Shown: positions 1-62,480 of the stretch, piece after piece
Layout: the number at the start of each line of letters is the position of its first letter
How positions within the stretch are numbered: position 1 is the stretch's first letter
From: Lysobacterales bacterium
GTDB lineage: Bacteria > Pseudomonadota > Gammaproteobacteria > Xanthomonadales > SZUA-5
Assembly: GCA_050250665.1 (NCBI GenBank)
Contig: JBFWOF010000035.1
Location: 1,406-65,405, forward strand
Direction of reading: 5' to 3'
DNA length: 64,000 nucleotides
Translations under genes and position numbers: made by a program
The notes under the pieces: generated by a model
Databases searched by the model: none
Told to the model about the DNA's origin: nothing
The model's input: only the letters and a program-made list of their open reading frames with translations

Positions 1-31
1 CCAGACCCAGGGTTTTGCCGTCGAGAGCCAT
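1..31 (-). CDS. 5' end of an unidentified gene running off the left edge (MALDGKTLGL...)
   Basis: ATG at 29-31 on the minus strand with GAGGA about 9 nt upstream. Only 10 codons are visible, so no product can be named. Confidence 0.3.
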   Translation of the reverse strand, partial: MALDGKTLGL

Positions 32-116
32 GATCCGGGTCCTCAGGGGTTTGCCGGATATTCGGAGCCTTTGGGCGCGGGTGCAATGGTTTGGGGGGGT
101 GCGGGTGGCGGGCGTC

Positions 117-575
117 GGTTTCGCTTTGGTGGGTCCAGACTTGTCTGGACGCTTCTGGGCGGGGTGCGGGAAGAGCGTCCAGACGAGTCTGGACCTACAG
201 GAGCCGTAGATTGGGCGGGTTGCGGGAAGAGCGTCCAGACGAGTCTGGACCTACAGGAGCCGCAGATCCTGCCGAGCAAGCTCGGCACTACCAAGGCCTC
301 GTACGCCGAGGCTCTGGTAGAGCGGAGCTTGCTCCGCTGCTTTGGCTGCGCTTTGGTTTTGCTTTGGTGGGTCCAGACTTGTCTGGAGGCTTCTGGGCGG
401 GGCGTGGGAAGAGCGTCCAGACGAGTCTGGACCTACAAGAGCCGCAGATCCTGCCGAGCAAGCTCGGCACTACCAAGGCCTCGTACGCCGATGCTTTGGT
501 ACAGCGGAGCTTGCTCCGCTGCTTTGGCTGCGCTTTGGTTTTGCTTTGGTGGGTCCAGGCGAGTCTGAACCTGCG
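117..575. repeat. Tandem array (about 2.5 copies) of a ~182-bp intergenic repeat built from hairpin modules (GTCCAGAC-N2/3-GTCTGGAC; GCCGAGCAAGCTCGGC)
   Basis: GGGAAGAGCGTCCAGACGAGTCTGGACCTACA starts at 168, 224 and 406. CAGATCCTGCCGAGCAAGCTCGGCACTACCAAGGCC starts at 263 and 445. The ORFs called over this stretch only translate the repeat. Confidence 0.9.
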
Positions 576-21372: not shown

Positions 21373-21834
21373 ATGAACATGCACCGCCGTTCCTTCCTGG
21401 CGATGAGTGCCTCGGTCCTCGCCGTGGCCACCACCGCCGCGCTCTGGCCGCTGAGGGCCCTGGCCGAATGGGTGCGACCGCAGGCCGCCTTCGAAGCCAA
21501 GGCACTCGACGCGGTGTACGCCAGTCTCGGCGGCACGCCCGAAGACAGCGATCAGATCACCTTCATGAGCCCGGAGATCGCCGAGAACGGCGCCGTGGTG
21601 CCGGTCAGTGTCACCAGCAAGATTGCCGGCACTGATCAGATCGCCATTCTGGTGGAGATGAATCCGAACCCGCTGGCGGCACTGTTCATGATCCCCGAGG
21701 GCACCGAGCCCGGCGTGTCCACGCGCGTCAAGGTCGCCCAGACCTGCCGCTTGCAGGCGCTAGTCCATGCCGACGGCAAGTGGTACCGCACCTCGCGCGA
21801 GACCAAGGTGACCTTGGGTGGGTGTGGCGGGTGA
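21373..21834 (+). CDS. soxY: Sulfur carrier protein SoxY
   Basis: Tat-type leader MNMHRRSFLAM and the diagnostic C-terminus VTLGGCGG. Confidence 0.95.
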   Translation: MNMHRRSFLAMSASVLAVATTAALWPLRALAEWVRPQAAFEAKALDAVYASLGGTPEDSDQITFMSPEIAENGAVVPVSVTSKIAGTDQIAILVEMNPNPLAALFMIPEGTEPGVSTRVKVAQTCRLQALVHADGKWYRTSRETKVTLGGCGG

Positions 21835-21848
21835 AGCGAGAGCATTTA

Positions 21849-22620
21849 TCCGCAGATGAGAGCAGTGATCCGCAGATGTCACAGATGTACGCAGATGAGA
21901 GCGGGTGAAGAGTTGCGCTGTCGAGTTTGAAATGGCGATGGGGCGTGTGGGGGCAAAGAGCAACCGGTTCGCAGATGGAGGCGGGAAGTGAGCAGCAGAT
22001 CCACCAGGAATATTCAACCAGTCGCTGGGTCACCTACGCGTCAAACGAGCTATGCCTTGCTCTCATCTGCGGACATCTGTGACATCTGCGGAAAATGGCC
22101 TTTTTTACTCGTTGCTGGGTCACTCACGCGTCAAACGAACTATGTCCTTCTCTCATCTGCGGACATCTGTGACATCTGCGGAAACAGGCTTCTAGGGAAC
22201 TGGCAATGAGCGACAGCGAGACCAGGCGGGACGAGCAGACTTACGCTGTGATTGGCGCGGCGATGGCTGTCCATGGCGAGTTGGGGTCCGGATTCCTGGA
22301 GTCGGTCTACCAGGAGGCCTTGGAGTGTGAGTTTGTCGAAAGGGGCATTCCTTACGTTCGCGAGCAAGGTCTGCCGATCTACTACCGCGGCAAGCTGCTG
22401 ATGGCAACGCATCGCGCGGATTTCGTTTGCTACGGCGAAGTCATTGTGGAGTTGAAGGCACTGCAACGCTTGAGCGGAATCGAGTCGGCGCAGGTGATTC
22501 ATTACCTCAAGGCCACCAAGCTCAATCGGGCTTTGCTGCTCAACTTCGGCACGCCAAGGTTGGAGCACAAGCGATTCGTGCTTGATCTGCGCTCATCTGT
22601 GACATCTGCGGAAACAGGCT
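21849..22620 (+). mobile_element. Repeat-bounded cassette carrying a GxxExxY ORF (putative non-autonomous or unclassified mobile insertion; no transposase)
   Basis: The 33-nt motif CTCTCATCTGCGGACATCTGTGACATCTGCGGA occurs forward at 22060-22092 and 22150-22182, where it forms the ends of two 90-bp tandem units. A 38-nt version lies at 22583-22620. An inverted copy with 1 mismatch lies at 21869-21901, and a further half-copy at 21849-21862. GC is lower than in the flanks. Confidence 0.55.
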
Positions 22621-22652
22621 CTTTGGATTTACCAGTTGATCAACAGGAGTAG
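22206..22652 (+). CDS. GxxExxY-family protein (PD-(D/E)XK nuclease-like fold)
   Basis: G-F-L-E-S-V-Y signature at [14 protein letters not shown]-x9-E-L-K motif in [17 protein letters not shown]. The last ~20 codons read through the right-hand repeat, and the stop TAG overlaps the soxZ SD. Confidence 0.75.
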
Positions 22653-22656
22653 AGAC

Positions 22657-22968
22657 ATGGGTAACCCGATGCGCATACGCGCTACCACCACTGACGGTGT
22701 GACCGAGGTCAAGGCCTTGATGTCGCATCCGATGGAAACCGGTTTGCGCAAGGACAGCAGTGGTGTGGCGGTGCCGGCTCATCACATCAAGCAGGTGATT
22801 GCCAAGCACAACGACAAGGTGGTGCTGGCGGCCGAGTGGGGCGCTGCGGTGTCGCAGAACCCCTTCCTGCAGTTCCGCTTCAACGGTGGTGCGGCGGGCG
22901 ACAAGGTCAGCATCGAATGGACCGACAACACCGGAGACAGTCGCAAGGACGAGGTGGTACTCACCTGA
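22657..22968 (+). CDS. soxZ: Sulfur compound chelating protein SoxZ
   Basis: 103 aa (MGNPMRIRATTTDGVTEVKALMSHPMETG...), the typical SoxZ N-terminus and length. AGGAG SD. Confidence 0.9.
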   Translation: MGNPMRIRATTTDGVTEVKALMSHPMETGLRKDSSGVAVPAHHIKQVIAKHNDKVVLAAEWGAAVSQNPFLQFRFNGGAAGDKVSIEWTDNTGDSRKDEVVLT

Positions 22969-36980: not shown

Positions 36981-37145
36981 CTAGCGGGGTGTCCCGCAAT
37001 TAGGTTGAAGAGATTTCTGATGGATTTTGACCAGAGGCAAGGCGCGAGAAGGAGTCATAGCAGGGCTATGGCGACGACGAGCAACGCAGCATTCGGGGCA
37101 AAAGACACGGAAATGGTTAAAGGTAATTGTGGGACACCCCGCTAG
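36981..37145. mobile_element. 165-bp MITE-like element with 22-bp terminal inverted repeats
   Basis: CTAGCGGGGTGTCCCGCAATTA at 36981-37002 versus TAATTGTGGGACACCCCGCTAG at 37124-37145 (1 mismatch). The interior is lower in GC and has no ORF. The right TIR supplies the TAG stop of the HAD gene. Confidence 0.65.
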
Positions 37146-58905: not shown

Positions 58906-59041
58906 CGGCGGCTGGGATGGTGTCTAGGTTAGCGGATCAGGCGGCCGCCTGCGTCGGTCGGGCGCGGAACGCGCAACCGTAGGTTGGGCTAAGCGCAGCG
59001 TGCCCAACACGAGGGCGGAGCGTTGGGCACGCTGCGCGTAG

Positions 59042-59266
59042 CCCAACGGTCATGGCTGCGAGTCACTCGCCATCATCAAAGTCGCTGGTGCCATGACCGT
59101 TGCATAAGGTGTCTTGCCCAACCCCTGCCCAGCCCGTCCGGCCCGGCGGCAAGCCGCCGCGCGTTCGCAGGCGCGGCCGGCATGCCGGCCAAGCGCGCCA
59201 GGCTCACCCCCGAACATCGGGGAGGGAGCGACAGCACTCGTCTGAACGACGTTCACGGCAACCCAC
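59042..59266. repeat. Dispersed intergenic element (copy 2 of the 749-902 family, with a ~70-bp internal insertion)
   Basis: Shares both ends and the GGTCATGGC/GCCATGACC hairpin with copy 1. It is preceded by a GTTGGGC...GCCCAAC hairpin pair at 58981-59045. Confidence 0.85.
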
Positions 59267-62025: not shown

Positions 62026-62074
62026 GGATCACCCCGCTGGATTCGAGGGCTGCAGTCTAGCGGGGCCGGGTGGA

Positions 62075-62116
62075 GGTTGTCGGTTGTCGGTTGTCGGTTG
62101 TCGGTTGTCGGTTGTC
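62075..62116. repeat. Perfect heptanucleotide tandem repeat (GGTTGTC)x6
   Basis: Read directly. Intergenic, 50 nt upstream of the SDR start codon. Confidence 0.95.
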
Positions 62117-62123
62117 GGGGTGC

Positions 62124-62200
62124 GGGGCTCGGGACTCGGGACTCGGGACTCGGGACTCGGGACTCGGGACTCGGGACTCGGGACTCGGGACTCGGGACTC
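62124..62200. repeat. Heptanucleotide tandem repeat (GGGACTC)x10 plus one degenerate copy
   Basis: Read directly: GGGGCTC followed by ten perfect GGGACTC units. Confidence 0.95.
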
Positions 62201-62300
62201 GGGATGGGCAGCAGTAGCGCGGCTCCGGCACGCGTGTGCTGGGCTGAGCGCCTGCGGGGATTCGCGCCGGCGGCCGCGGCTCTGTGGACGGCACAGCTGG

Positions 62301-62398
62301 CGTCATTGCGAGGAGCGCAGCGACGAAGCAATCCAGTGCTTCTGAGGATGGGTGTCTGGATTGCTTCCCCCCGGATCAAGTCCGGGGTCGCAATGACG
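62301..62398. repeat. REP hairpin, CGTCATTGCGAG/GCAATGACG family (copy 3)
   Basis: CGTCATTGCGAGGAGCGCAGCGACGAAGCAATCCAG ... CTGGATTGCTTCC...GTCGCAATGACG. Confidence 0.85.
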
Positions 62399-62440
62399 CA
62401 GGGTCCCGTGCTCTGGACCTACAAGAGCTTTCCCGTGCCC

Positions 62441-62477
62441 CAACAACCAACAGCCAACAACCAACAACCGACAACCG
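62441..62477. repeat. Degenerate heptad array (CAACAAC/CGACAAC)x5, the inverted counterpart of the GGTTGTC array
   Basis: CAACAACCAACAGCCAACAACCAACAACCGACAACCG. The reverse complement of GGTTGTC repeats is GACAACC repeats. Confidence 0.8.
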
Positions 62478-62480
62478 CCG

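What the first reader, a model, noticed from the sequence alone, without database searches (positions are those of the whole stretch)
21835..22656. Repeat-bounded GxxExxY / PD-(D/E)XK cassette inserted precisely between soxY and soxZ
**Unusual spacing.** Every other junction in this sox operon is -17 to +58 nt, but soxY and soxZ are 822 nt apart. These two genes encode the two halves of one carrier complex and are normally adjacent.

**What the gap holds.**
- It has lower GC than the flanks.
- It contains one co-oriented ORF (22206-22652) with an intact G-F-L-E-S-V-Y signature and a D-x9-E-L-K nuclease-type motif.

**Repeat structure.**
- The 33-nt motif CTCTCATCTGCGGACATCTGTGACATCTGCGGA is itself a 9-10-bp periodic CATCTGYGR array.
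- It ends two 90-bp tandem units (22022-22095 and 22112-22185).
- It recurs as a 38-nt direct repeat over the ORF's 3' end (22583-22620).
- It occurs inverted, with 1 mismatch, at the left border (21869-21901).
- So the ORF is bracketed by direct repeats 430 bp apart, and the whole insert is bracketed by inverted repeats.

**Consequences and interpretation.**
- The ORF's last ~20 codons are repeat-encoded, and its stop overlaps the soxZ Shine-Dalgarno. The operon can therefore still be read through.
- No transposase or integrase is present.
- This looks like a small selfish cassette whose mobility mechanism and function are not described. The nuclease-like protein itself may drive its movement.
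Basis: partly seen in the sequence, partly recalled or inferred. Interest (0 to 1): 0.8.

Follow-up and report, generated by a model that had tools for sequence, protein, structure and literature searches.

The report
Hairpin-bounded nuclease gene wedged in soxYZ
A small nuclease gene enclosed by hairpin-forming repeats sits between two sulfur-oxidation genes, and it proved to be one copy of a very widespread gene-plus-repeat element, found across many bacterial phyla, that I could not find described in the literature I could search.

Summary
soxY (21373-21834) and soxZ (22657-22968) are separated by 822 nt. The gap holds a 784-nt repeat-bounded element (about 21839-22622) carrying one intact GxxExxY / PD-(D/E)XK gene (22206-22652).

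The "33-nt motif" is not local. It is one arm of an inverted repeat built from three 9-10-nt units (ATCC-RCAGAT-K-N...).
- The exact 19-mer occurs in 55 stretches of public genomes from about ten phyla, against roughly 4 expected by chance.
- In a protein-first sample, 69 of 80 homologous genes have such arms. In the canonical form the arms encode the protein's ends (PQMTQMDAD... / ...NLRSSASSADK).
- Distant GxxExxY genes (32-60% identity) keep the architecture with other units (CACAGAGGA, CACGAAG, CGCGGAT).
- They are likewise wedged, co-oriented, inside operons.

ORF-less hairpins also exist. Close relatives of this organism carry a sister hairpin (CGCAAAGGA units) without the gene at the same soxY-soxZ site.

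Arms of gene-bearing elements are base-complementary unit by unit (odds ratio 35), with no G·U bias. The gene is under purifying selection (dN/dS about 0.1). One Bacteroidaceae copy is vertically inherited with compensated arm changes.

Best reading: a REPIN/RAYT-like hairpin-plus-nuclease system acting on DNA. Its mechanism is untested.

The parts
21373..21834 (+). soxY, the upstream host gene. Its stop codon lies 4 nt before the element.
   Evidence: TIGR04488 E 1.4e-44 and PF13501
21839..22622 (.). Whole element, from the outer left terminus to the outer right terminus (784 nt).
   Evidence: The outer stem 21839-21858 / 22603-22622 is 85% complementary (pair I25; MFE fold). The left-terminal string AGAGCATTTATCCGCAGATGA is shared with an unrelated locus of the sister genome (L056). 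Homology to relatives breaks at 21854 and resumes at 22641.
21839..21858 (-). Outer left terminus: a single unit, AGAGCATTTATCCGCAGATG.
   Evidence: I4; I25
21869..21902 (-). Inner left arm with three units: TCCGCAGATG TCACAGATG TACGCAGATG AGAGC.
   Evidence: 97% complementary to 22059-22092 and to 22150-22182; 93% to 22585-22612 (I1-I3)
22021..22099 (+). Tandem unit 1, ending in right arm A (22059-22092).
   Evidence: D1, I1
22111..22189 (+). Tandem unit 2 (89% identical to unit 1), ending in right arm B (22150-22182).
   Evidence: D1, I2
22206..22652 (+). GxxExxY protein gene (148 aa), a minimal PD-(D/E)XK nuclease. Residues E32, D72, E82 and K84 are invariant. Residues 126-148 are repeat-encoded and predicted disordered.
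   Evidence: TIGR04256 and PF13366; invariant columns; AF2 pLDDT 86.9; best PDB fold match Cas4 SSO0001; dN/dS 0.10 against L041
22585..22612 (+). Right arm C with three units, lying inside the 3' end of the ORF and encoding ...LRSSVTSAE.
   Evidence: D2, I3; homologs end in NLRsSAsSADk
22603..22622 (+). Outer right terminus, CATCTGCGGAAACAGGCTCT, which pairs with 21839-21858.
   Evidence: (I25)
22645..22968 (+). soxZ Shine-Dalgarno (AGGAG, 22645-22649) and soxZ (22657-22968), the downstream host gene.
   Evidence: TIGR04490 E 2.5e-37; sequence

Best explanation
The insert is a rearranged copy of a widespread composite element. The element is a gene for a minimal PD-(D/E)XK nuclease (GxxExxY family) enclosed by an inverted repeat. 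Each arm of the repeat is three 9-10-nt units ending in ATCC-RCAGAT.

I propose that the system works at the DNA level, like a REPIN/RAYT or MITE/autonomous-element pair.
- The two arms base-pair, as a single-strand hairpin or a cruciform.
- The encoded nuclease recognises its own clade-specific units in that structure and cuts at or near the sharp outer boundary.
- The break is processed by host repair. This occasionally copies, replaces or tandemly amplifies the hairpin, with or without the gene.
- Gene-less hairpins are non-autonomous derivatives.

The element settles just downstream of stop codons inside operons, co-oriented with them. There it is transcribed by read-through, and its closed stem lets the operon (here soxY to soxZ) continue to function.

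Shown: the anatomy, the cross-phylum association, the clade-specific units, arm complementarity without G·U bias, purifying selection, site polymorphism, and local amplification.

Inferred: that the nuclease binds or cuts the arms, that the relevant structure is DNA, and any mobility mechanism.
For: 1. Association.
- 69 of 80 protein-first homolog loci have arms near the gene.
- The best 120 homologs mostly begin with QMTQMDAD and end with NLRsSAsSAD, which are translations of the arms.
- 166 of 228 arms have exactly three units, spaced 9 or 10 nt apart, with a fixed ATCC outer end.

2. The same architecture with different units in divergent clades:
- CACAGAGGA (Bacteroides);
- CACAGAGA (Bernardetia);
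- CGCGGAT (Gemmatirosa);
- CACGAAG (L272);
- CGCAAAGGA, the ORF-less hairpin in the sox relatives.

3. Arms base-pair.
- Cognate arms pair at -48.5 kcal/mol against -40.6 for non-cognate arms, better in 25 of 29.
- Per-unit R/Y coupling is G-C 58 and A-T 18 against G-T 5 and A-C 6, p 1.5e-9.
- Compensated changes occur at an orthologous locus.

4. DNA rather than sense RNA. There is no strand bias in duplex energy (15 against 20, p 0.28), and G-T is about as rare as A-C.

5. Non-autonomous copies and dispersal.
- ORF-less hairpins make up most of the 55 genome hits.
- The sister genome has two at an unrelated locus.
- Closely related elements have unrelated flanks.

6. Turnover at this site.
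- The window and L041 carry the gene, while relatives with 80-91% identical flanks carry other palindromes.
- The window and L041 differ by 90-nt against 244-nt tandem amplifications.

7. The nuclease is intact and constrained. The catalytic E, D and ExK residues are invariant, the fold is Cas4/RecB-like, and dN/dS is 0.07-0.20.
Against: - No biochemical activity is known for any family member (PMC3424549 lists the function as unknown).
- A hydrolytic PD-(D/E)XK nuclease cannot rejoin DNA on its own, and no target-site duplication is seen. The mobility step is therefore unexplained.
- The radA-linked Bacteroidaceae copy has stayed at one locus while RadA diverged to 84% and the nuclease to 60%. 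This looks like a resident host gene, not an active parasite.
- The family is absent from 50,697 phage records and is found in only 8 of 72,556 plasmid records, all typed non-mobilizable.
- Solo hairpins show no per-unit coupling. They may be decaying relics rather than mobilisable copies.
- Co-orientation with neighbours (45 of 64 upstream) and the closeness to stop codons fit an RNA-level role equally well.
- No truly empty soxY-soxZ site was found.
Confidence: 0.45

Rival explanations
1. An RNA-level element, analogous to an rRNA intervening sequence. The cassette is transcribed with the operon. Its arms form a long RNA stem that is cut by RNase III or acts as a 3' stabiliser or insulator. 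This releases or silences the nuclease mRNA while keeping the soxY and soxZ messages functional. The repeats are conserved because of this RNA structure.
For: - Elements are co-oriented with neighbours (45 of 64 upstream, 35 of 54 downstream; (+,+) 19 against (-,-) 4).
- The left end lies 0-19 nt after the upstream stop codon in 23 of 61 cases.
- The predicted fold closes the whole insert (MFE -337.7 kcal/mol, z -3.3).
- Arm changes are compensated at an orthologous locus.
- No promoter-like or terminator-like site lies inside the insert.
- A 23S_rRNA_IVP gene lies two genes upstream of a GxxExxY gene in the same co-oriented cluster of L269.
Against: - There is no excess of G·U over A·C between arms (5 against 6), and no sense-strand advantage in duplex energy.
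- This reading does not explain why the primary sequence of the units, rather than just the pairing, is conserved across phyla and tracks the protein clade.
- It does not explain why a nuclease gene is the constant cargo.
- No Rfam family matches.
Confidence: 0.25
2. A domesticated host nuclease, for example in repair, defence or nucleic-acid turnover. Its flanking stem only controls its own expression by occluding the start codon, which lies inside the left arm. The sox copy is a rare lateral acquisition with no continuing mobility.
For: - Purifying selection, dN/dS 0.07-0.20.
- Vertical inheritance at the radA locus across Bacteroidaceae.
- In canonical copies the start codon lies inside the left arm.
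- The family is large: 14,344 clusters at 50% identity.
Against: - No match to any PADLOC defence model.
- It does not explain the ORF-less hairpins dispersed in the same genomes.
- It does not explain tandem amplification of arms.
- It does not explain the strict three-unit architecture.
- It does not explain the turnover of different palindromes at the sox site.
Confidence: 0.2
3. A homing-type selfish gene. The nuclease cuts gene-less hairpins (the 'empty sites'), and repair from a gene-bearing copy uses the roughly 30-nt arms as homology. The gene therefore hops between pre-existing hairpins.
For: - Gene-less and gene-bearing hairpins of one subfamily coexist in one lineage.
- At the sox site a gene-bearing GATG-type element occupies the place of an AAGG-type solo hairpin, with the breakpoint inside the shared terminal TTATCCGCA.
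- From my own knowledge, PD-(D/E)XK homing endonucleases exist (I-Ssp6803I, I-Bth0305I); the latter appears in the fold hits at rank 34.
Against: - Arms are short for recombinational repair.
- The right-hand breakpoint at the sox site lies outside the arm.
- Long vertical persistence under purifying selection is unusual for homing genes.
- This reading does not explain how solo hairpins reach new sites.
Confidence: 0.1

Closest known systems
GxxExxY protein family (NCBIfam TIGR04256; Pfam PF13366 PDDEXK_3)
   Same: The ORF is a full-length, high-scoring member with an intact catalytic motif.
   Different: The family is catalogued only as a protein of unknown function (PMC3424549). The flanking triple-unit inverted repeats, the repeat-encoded protein termini and the operon-wedged position do not appear in any text I could search.
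REP / REPIN elements with their RAYT transposase (own knowledge: Nunvar 2010; Bertels & Rainey 2011; Ton-Hoang 2012)
   Same: - A gene flanked by inverted copies of a repeat.
- Many gene-less hairpin copies in intergenic spacers close to stop codons.
- Hairpin complementarity is maintained.
- The gene is often vertically inherited and under purifying selection.
- Repeat sequence is matched to the protein clade.
   Different: - The protein is a PD-(D/E)XK hydrolase, not an HUH/Y1 transposase.
- Arms are built from three periodic 9-10-nt units.
- The same unit sequence is shared across phyla rather than being species-specific.
- Genes are multi-copy.
MITEs and TIR transposons (for example Correia elements and Rickettsia palindromic elements; own knowledge)
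   Same: Short palindromic elements with terminal inverted repeats, found in intergenic or co-transcribed positions, with autonomous and non-autonomous forms.
   Different: There is no DDE transposase and no target-site duplication. The arms are internally periodic.
23S rRNA intervening sequences carrying an ORF (Leptospira/Coxiella S23p; four-helix-bundle family TIGR02436 / PF05635; own knowledge)
   Same: A small ORF is enclosed by a long stem inside a host transcript, and the host function survives. A PF05635 gene lies two genes upstream of a GxxExxY gene, in the same co-oriented cluster, in L269.
   Different: The element sits in mRNA operons, not in rRNA. The protein fold is different. 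There is no evidence of RNase III processing, and the arms show no G·U bias.
Cas4 / RecB-family nuclease domain
   Same: Closest solved fold: SSO0001 Cas4 (4ic1, E 1e-4, TM 0.49), followed by MGME1, lambda exonuclease and the AddB/AdnA nuclease domains.
   Different: There is no sequence-level PDB match and no CRISPR context. The core is only 125 aa, and similarity is moderate (TM below 0.5).

Membership tests
GxxExxY protein (TIGR04256 / PF13366) | Profile match above the curated cut-off over the full model | tested here: met
   TIGR04256 scores 135.5 bits against a cut-off of 35, covering model positions 2-116 of 116. PF13366 scores 126.4 bits against a cut-off of 22.
GxxExxY protein (TIGR04256 / PF13366) | GxxExxY signature plus the PD-(D/E)XK catalytic residues (E ... 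D ... ExK) | tested here: met
   G29-F-L-E32-S-V-Y35, D72 and E82-L-K84 are all invariant in 44 homologs. The predicted secondary-structure order (two helices, three strands, a helix, two strands) contains the alpha-beta-beta-beta-alpha-beta core typical of PD-(D/E)XK nucleases.
REPIN / RAYT system | Gene flanked by inverted repeat copies, with dispersed gene-less hairpin copies | tested here: met
REPIN / RAYT system | The associated protein is an HUH / Y1 (IS200/IS605 TnpA-like) transposase | tested here: not met
   The only Pfam or NCBIfam hit is PD-(D/E)XK. The fold hits are Cas4/RecB-like.
TIR transposon / MITE | Terminal inverted repeats | tested here: met
TIR transposon / MITE | Target-site duplication and a DDE or other known transposase | tested here: not met
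   No direct repeats flank 68 arm pairs examined. No transposase or integrase ORF lies in or next to the element.
rRNA-type intervening sequence | Located within an rRNA gene and excised by RNase III at the stem | tested here: not met
   The element lies between protein-coding genes. RNase III cleavage is not testable with these tools.
Homing endonuclease gene | The nuclease cleaves the empty allele, and occupied and empty alleles coexist | tested here: inconclusive
   The site is polymorphic among relatives, but the alternative alleles carry other palindromes and are not empty. Cleavage is not testable here.
Known structured RNA (Rfam 15) | Covariance-model match | tested here: not met
   There is no match in the window region up to E = 10. 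The hairpin gives no family at gathering score in 8 loci, only sub-threshold miRNA-like hits in L044 at E up to 1, and no hit in 4 further loci at E up to 0.1.
Anti-phage defence systems (PADLOC-DB) | Match to a defence protein model | tested here: not met
   0 families at E up to 1

The most novel reading that the evidence does not exclude
GxxExxY genes and their triple-unit hairpins form a previously unrecognised, pan-bacterial class of REPIN-like genetic element. Its catalytic engine is a minimal Cas4/RecB-like PD-(D/E)XK nuclease that recognises clade-specific 9-10-nt units in a DNA hairpin or cruciform. This would be a new way for palindromic repeats to be created, maintained or moved inside operons.
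Probability: 0.35. Interest if true: 0.85.

Novelty: new variant of a known kind. Interest (0 to 1): 0.72.

Why it matters
GxxExxY proteins are annotated in many bacterial genomes and form at least 14,000 clusters at 50% identity, yet their function is unknown.

This work shows that they come packaged in a strict, clade-specific, triple-unit inverted repeat. The package sits inside essential operons (sox, V-ATPase, and next to radA), and gene-less hairpins of the same kind are scattered nearby. That gives the family a concrete, testable substrate: its own arms.

- If the nuclease acts on these hairpins, this is a second, mechanistically different solution to the REP/RAYT problem, and a source of programmable sequence- and structure-specific nucleases.
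- If the stem acts in RNA, it is a widespread way of inserting a gene into an operon without breaking it.

Either way, genome annotation currently misses the repeats and mis-calls the repeat-encoded protein ends.

Tried and rejected
- **Known RNA family.** Rfam scans of the window region and of 13 related loci found nothing for the hairpin. They gave only sub-threshold miRNA-like hits and an unrelated Acido-Lenti-1 repeat in L044.
- **Literature.** GxxExxY, PDDEXK_3, PF13366, TIGR04256 and ten repeat strings gave no description of the element.
- **Phage or plasmid cargo.** There was no phage hit and only 8 plasmid records, all typed non-mobilizable. Viral-contig scans for two 18-mers gave solitary or ORF-less matches.
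- **Defence system.** No PADLOC hit, and only one weak PHROG hit of unknown function (E 0.003).
- **Other cargo families inside the same arms.** ORFs reading through the 19-mer in the 55 genome loci gave nothing consistent apart from GxxExxY.
- **Sense-RNA-specific stem.** Rejected by the absence of strand or wobble bias.
- **Target-site duplication.** None seen.
- **Intrinsic terminator or own promoter in the insert.** None found.
- **Empty soxY-soxZ site.** Not found. The nearest relatives carry other palindromes.
- **RNAalifold on five orthologous Bacteroidaceae arms.** A 1-nt linker difference put the alignment partly out of register. I rely only on the cleanly aligned compensated pair and on the manual reading of A3 and A4.
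- **DnaA-box resemblance.** The outer end (T)TATCC[A/G]CA resembles a DnaA box (TTATCCACA, own knowledge). I noted this but did not pursue it.
Full report
**1. The observation**

soxY (21373-21834) and soxZ (22657-22968) are confirmed by curated equivalog models. They are separated by 822 nt, whereas the other junctions in the cluster are -17 to +58 nt. The spacer has lower GC, 0.51-0.60 against 0.62-0.70 in the flanks.

The repeats are as described:
- two 79-nt copies 90 nt apart;
- three direct copies of a 40-nt segment (22065, 22155, 22585);
- an inverted 33-34-nt arm at 21869-21902 that is 97% complementary.

The 19-mer core CATCTGTGACATCTGCGGA occurs four times in the window against 0.01 expected.

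I add an outer stem, 21839-21858 with 22603-22622, which closes the whole insert (pair I25). With it the element spans about 21839-22622.

The single ORF (22206-22652) is a full-length GxxExxY / PDDEXK_3 protein, with TIGR04256 E 1e-39 and PF13366 E 1e-36.
- E32, D72, E82 and K84 are invariant among homologs.
- The model is confident over residues 11-129 (10-residue block means of pLDDT 80-98; 65 for residues 1-10) and drops to 44-59 from residue 130 on, in the repeat-encoded tail.
- The nearest solved folds are Cas4 SSO0001, MGME1, lambda exonuclease and the AddB/AdnA nuclease domains, at TM about 0.49.
- There is no sequence-level PDB match.

**2. The motif is not local**

An exact scan of 185,579 species genomes found the 19-mer in 55 stretches. 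They come from Flavobacteriales, Planctomycetota, Thermoanaerobaculia, Desulfobacterota, Verrucomicrobiota, Anaerolineales, Gemmatimonadales, Latescibacterota and Lysobacterales. My estimate for chance under uniform composition is about 4 (596 Gb x 2 / 4^19).

Aligning the hits shows a third unit upstream (ATCTGCGnn). It usually also shows a nearby inverted copy, TCCGCAGATGaCGCAGATGanCGCAGAT. About eight hits have only the bare 19-mer and look like chance matches.

The arm is therefore three 9-10-nt units, and two arms form a hairpin.

**3. Gene and arms belong together**

Ten of the 55 loci carry an intact close homolog of the ORF. Their tblastn identities are 54-67% across phyla, plus 98.6% in the sister genome L041.

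The decisive test was protein-first. A metagenome scan with a homolog alignment returned 80 loci at 51-67% identity.
- 69 of them have at least one arm within -500 to +900 nt of the gene.
- 52 have an arm at one canonical position, and 27 at both, under a strict pattern.

In the canonical form the left arm contains the start codon and the right arm lies just before the stop. Accordingly, most of the 120 best homologs begin with (NP)QMTQMDAD and end with NLRsSAsSADk, which are the translations of the two arms.

Arm anatomy is strict:
- 166 of 228 arms have exactly three units;
- spacing is 9 nt (256 cases) or 10 nt (141 cases);
- the outer end is ATCC-RCAGAT, with C at -1 in 100%, T at -2 in 89% and A at -3 in 72%.

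Complementarity stops 2-3 nt outside the first unit, and no target duplication is visible.

**4. The architecture is family-wide, with clade-specific units**

Distant GxxExxY genes show the same arrangement. Those found from the window ORF are 32-51% identical to it. Those found from the Bacteroides finegoldii protein are 59-66% identical to that protein.
- Bacteroides finegoldii: 30-nt arms of CACAGAGGA units, 90% complementary, enclosing the gene.
- Bernardetia: CACAGAGA units.
- Gemmatirosa: CGCGGATnn x3 hairpin.
- Treponema: short CACGGAT arms (for these four).
- L271: CACAGAGG units with several right arms.
- L272: CACGAAG units.
- L269: CACAGAT units (for these three).

All share an outer ...CC-R-C-R-R-A end.

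Among 150 diverse cluster representatives, many have period-3 peptide termini such as PQITQITQI, SAKSAKSAD, DYTDYTE and HLRNLRNLR. The family comprises 14,344 clusters at 50% identity at E up to 1e-3.

**5. Genomic position**

The genes are wedged between co-oriented host genes:
- soxY | X | soxZ in the window;
- radA | X | FAD-dependent protein;
- ade | X | mannose-1-phosphate guanylyltransferase;
- V-ATPase subunit B | X | subunit D;
- UDP-glucose dehydrogenase | X | epimerase.

In the 80 metagenome loci the upstream neighbour is co-oriented in 45 of 64 cases and the downstream neighbour in 35 of 54. The left end lies within 0-19 nt of the upstream stop codon in 23 of 61 cases. No promoter-like or terminator-like consensus lies in the window insert.

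**6. Do the arms pair, and in what molecule?**

Cognate arms of gene-bearing elements pair better than non-cognate arms: -48.5 against -40.6 kcal/mol, better in 25 of 29.

At the variable R position of each unit, the partner unit in the other arm is complementary: G-C 58 and A-T 18, against G-T 5 and A-C 6 (odds ratio 35, p 1.5e-9). Elements share ancestry, so this p-value overstates independence.

At an orthologous locus in Bacteroidaceae the arms carry compensated changes: AGGA/TCCT to AGTA/TACT, and GGA/TCC to TTT/AAA.

There is no G·U excess and no sense-strand advantage. This argues against a structure selected only in the sense RNA. It fits base-pairing in DNA, or copying of one arm from the other.

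Solo hairpins show no per-unit coupling, so they may be relics.

**7. Mobile or resident?**

For turnover:
- The sister genome (L041, flanks 96-97% identical) has the same insertion but with 244-nt amplifications that carry 5' fragments of the ORF. The window has a 90-nt duplication instead.
- Relatives with 80-91% identical flanks have a 191-192-nt spacer with no gene. It holds a sister hairpin of CGCAAAGGA units that starts at the same TTATCCGCA. Homology to the window breaks at 21854 and resumes at 22641.
- A further relative carries a different palindromic repeat at the site.
- The sister genome also has two gene-less hairpins of the same subfamily at an unrelated locus.
- Arms are often tandemly amplified, with periods of 43, 113, 134, 167 and 244 nt.

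For residence:
- dN/dS is 0.07-0.20.
- The radA-linked copy is syntenic across Bacteroidaceae. Its identity falls in step with RadA: 98/89, 91/73-77 and 83-84/59-60% for RadA/GxxExxY.
- The family is absent from phage records and nearly absent from plasmids.
- It matches no defence model.

**8. Interpretation**

The window holds a rearranged member of a pan-bacterial composite element: a minimal PD-(D/E)XK nuclease gene inside a triple-unit inverted repeat, accompanied by gene-less hairpins.

The closest functional analogy is the REPIN/RAYT relationship. The points in common are a gene flanked by inverted repeats, dispersed hairpins near stop codons, maintained complementarity, vertical inheritance, and a repeat type matched to the protein clade. 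The enzyme class differs, the arms are periodic, and unit sequences are shared across phyla.

I favour a DNA-level interaction between the nuclease and its own arms (0.45). The alternatives are:
- an IVS-like RNA role (0.25);
- a domesticated nuclease with a purely regulatory stem (0.20);
- hairpin-to-hairpin homing (0.10).

None of the activity is demonstrated.

**9. Novelty**

The protein family is catalogued, with function listed as 'Unknown' and 'multiple transfers' noted (PMC3424549). Searches for the family names and for ten repeat strings found no description of the repeats or of the composite element. Rfam has no model for the hairpin. Subscription-only literature and database free-text comments could not be searched.

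I therefore rate this a new variant of a known kind (a palindromic repeat with an associated enzyme), with a real chance of being a new class.

Noticed in passing
window 62072-62479: An intergenic region holds inverted arrays of heptamer tandem repeats: (GGTTGTC)x6 and (CGGGACT)x11 on the left, (CCAACAA)x5 on the right, with arms 85% complementary and about 305 nt apart. It resembles cyanobacterial STRR heptamers (own knowledge). No credible ORF lies between the arms. It may be a relic of another hairpin-bounded cassette.
   Followed up: partly
window 1-560: A dense cluster of REP-like palindromes (GTGGGTCCAGACTTGTCTGGACGCT and partners) sits inside 56-nt and 182-nt tandem repeats.
   Followed up: no
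window 58983-59047 and 36981-37145: Two isolated strong inverted repeats. One has 26-nt arms, 96% complementary, with a 13-nt loop. The other has 29-nt arms, 86% complementary, 107 nt apart.
   Followed up: no
L137-L144 (soxY-soxZ spacer of close relatives), e.g. L137 1577-1700: A sister hairpin built from CGCAAAGGA units, with no ORF, sits at the same position as the window element and shares the terminal TTATCCGCA. No GxxExxY gene carrying this unit type was found in the data I fetched.
   Followed up: partly
L146 2328-2500: A more distant relative (SoxZ 89% identical) has a 173-nt soxY-soxZ spacer filled by a different GGGAGAGGG-type palindromic repeat. The spacer is therefore a hotspot for several palindrome families.
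   Followed up: no
L068 1-200 and 600-840: Arms occur as long arrays with a 43-nt period (4-5 copies) on both sides of a GxxExxY gene. In effect this is a CAGATG motif repeated every 9-11 nt over about 200 nt.
   Followed up: partly
L269 1-356: A PF05635 (23S_rRNA_IVP, four-helix-bundle) gene lies two genes upstream of a GxxExxY gene, in the same co-oriented cluster. This hints that the two small 'wedge' gene families share a lifestyle.
   Followed up: no
L044 5425-6813: Four copies of the Rfam Acido-Lenti-1 motif lie 1.3-2.7 kb from a solo hairpin in a Pirellulales contig. Three are above the gathering score and one is just below. The motif is unrelated in sequence to the hairpin.
   Followed up: no
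L258 2102-2178: A SAM_alpha riboswitch hit (38.1 bits against a gathering score of 36) lies about 110 nt downstream of the CGCGGAT-type hairpin on the Gemmatirosa megaplasmid.
   Followed up: no
outer end of arms, e.g. window 21846-21854; L068 620-640: The outer end (T)TATCC[A/G]CA resembles the DnaA-box consensus TTATCCACA (own knowledge). One third of terminal units have the A variant. This may be coincidence.
   Followed up: no
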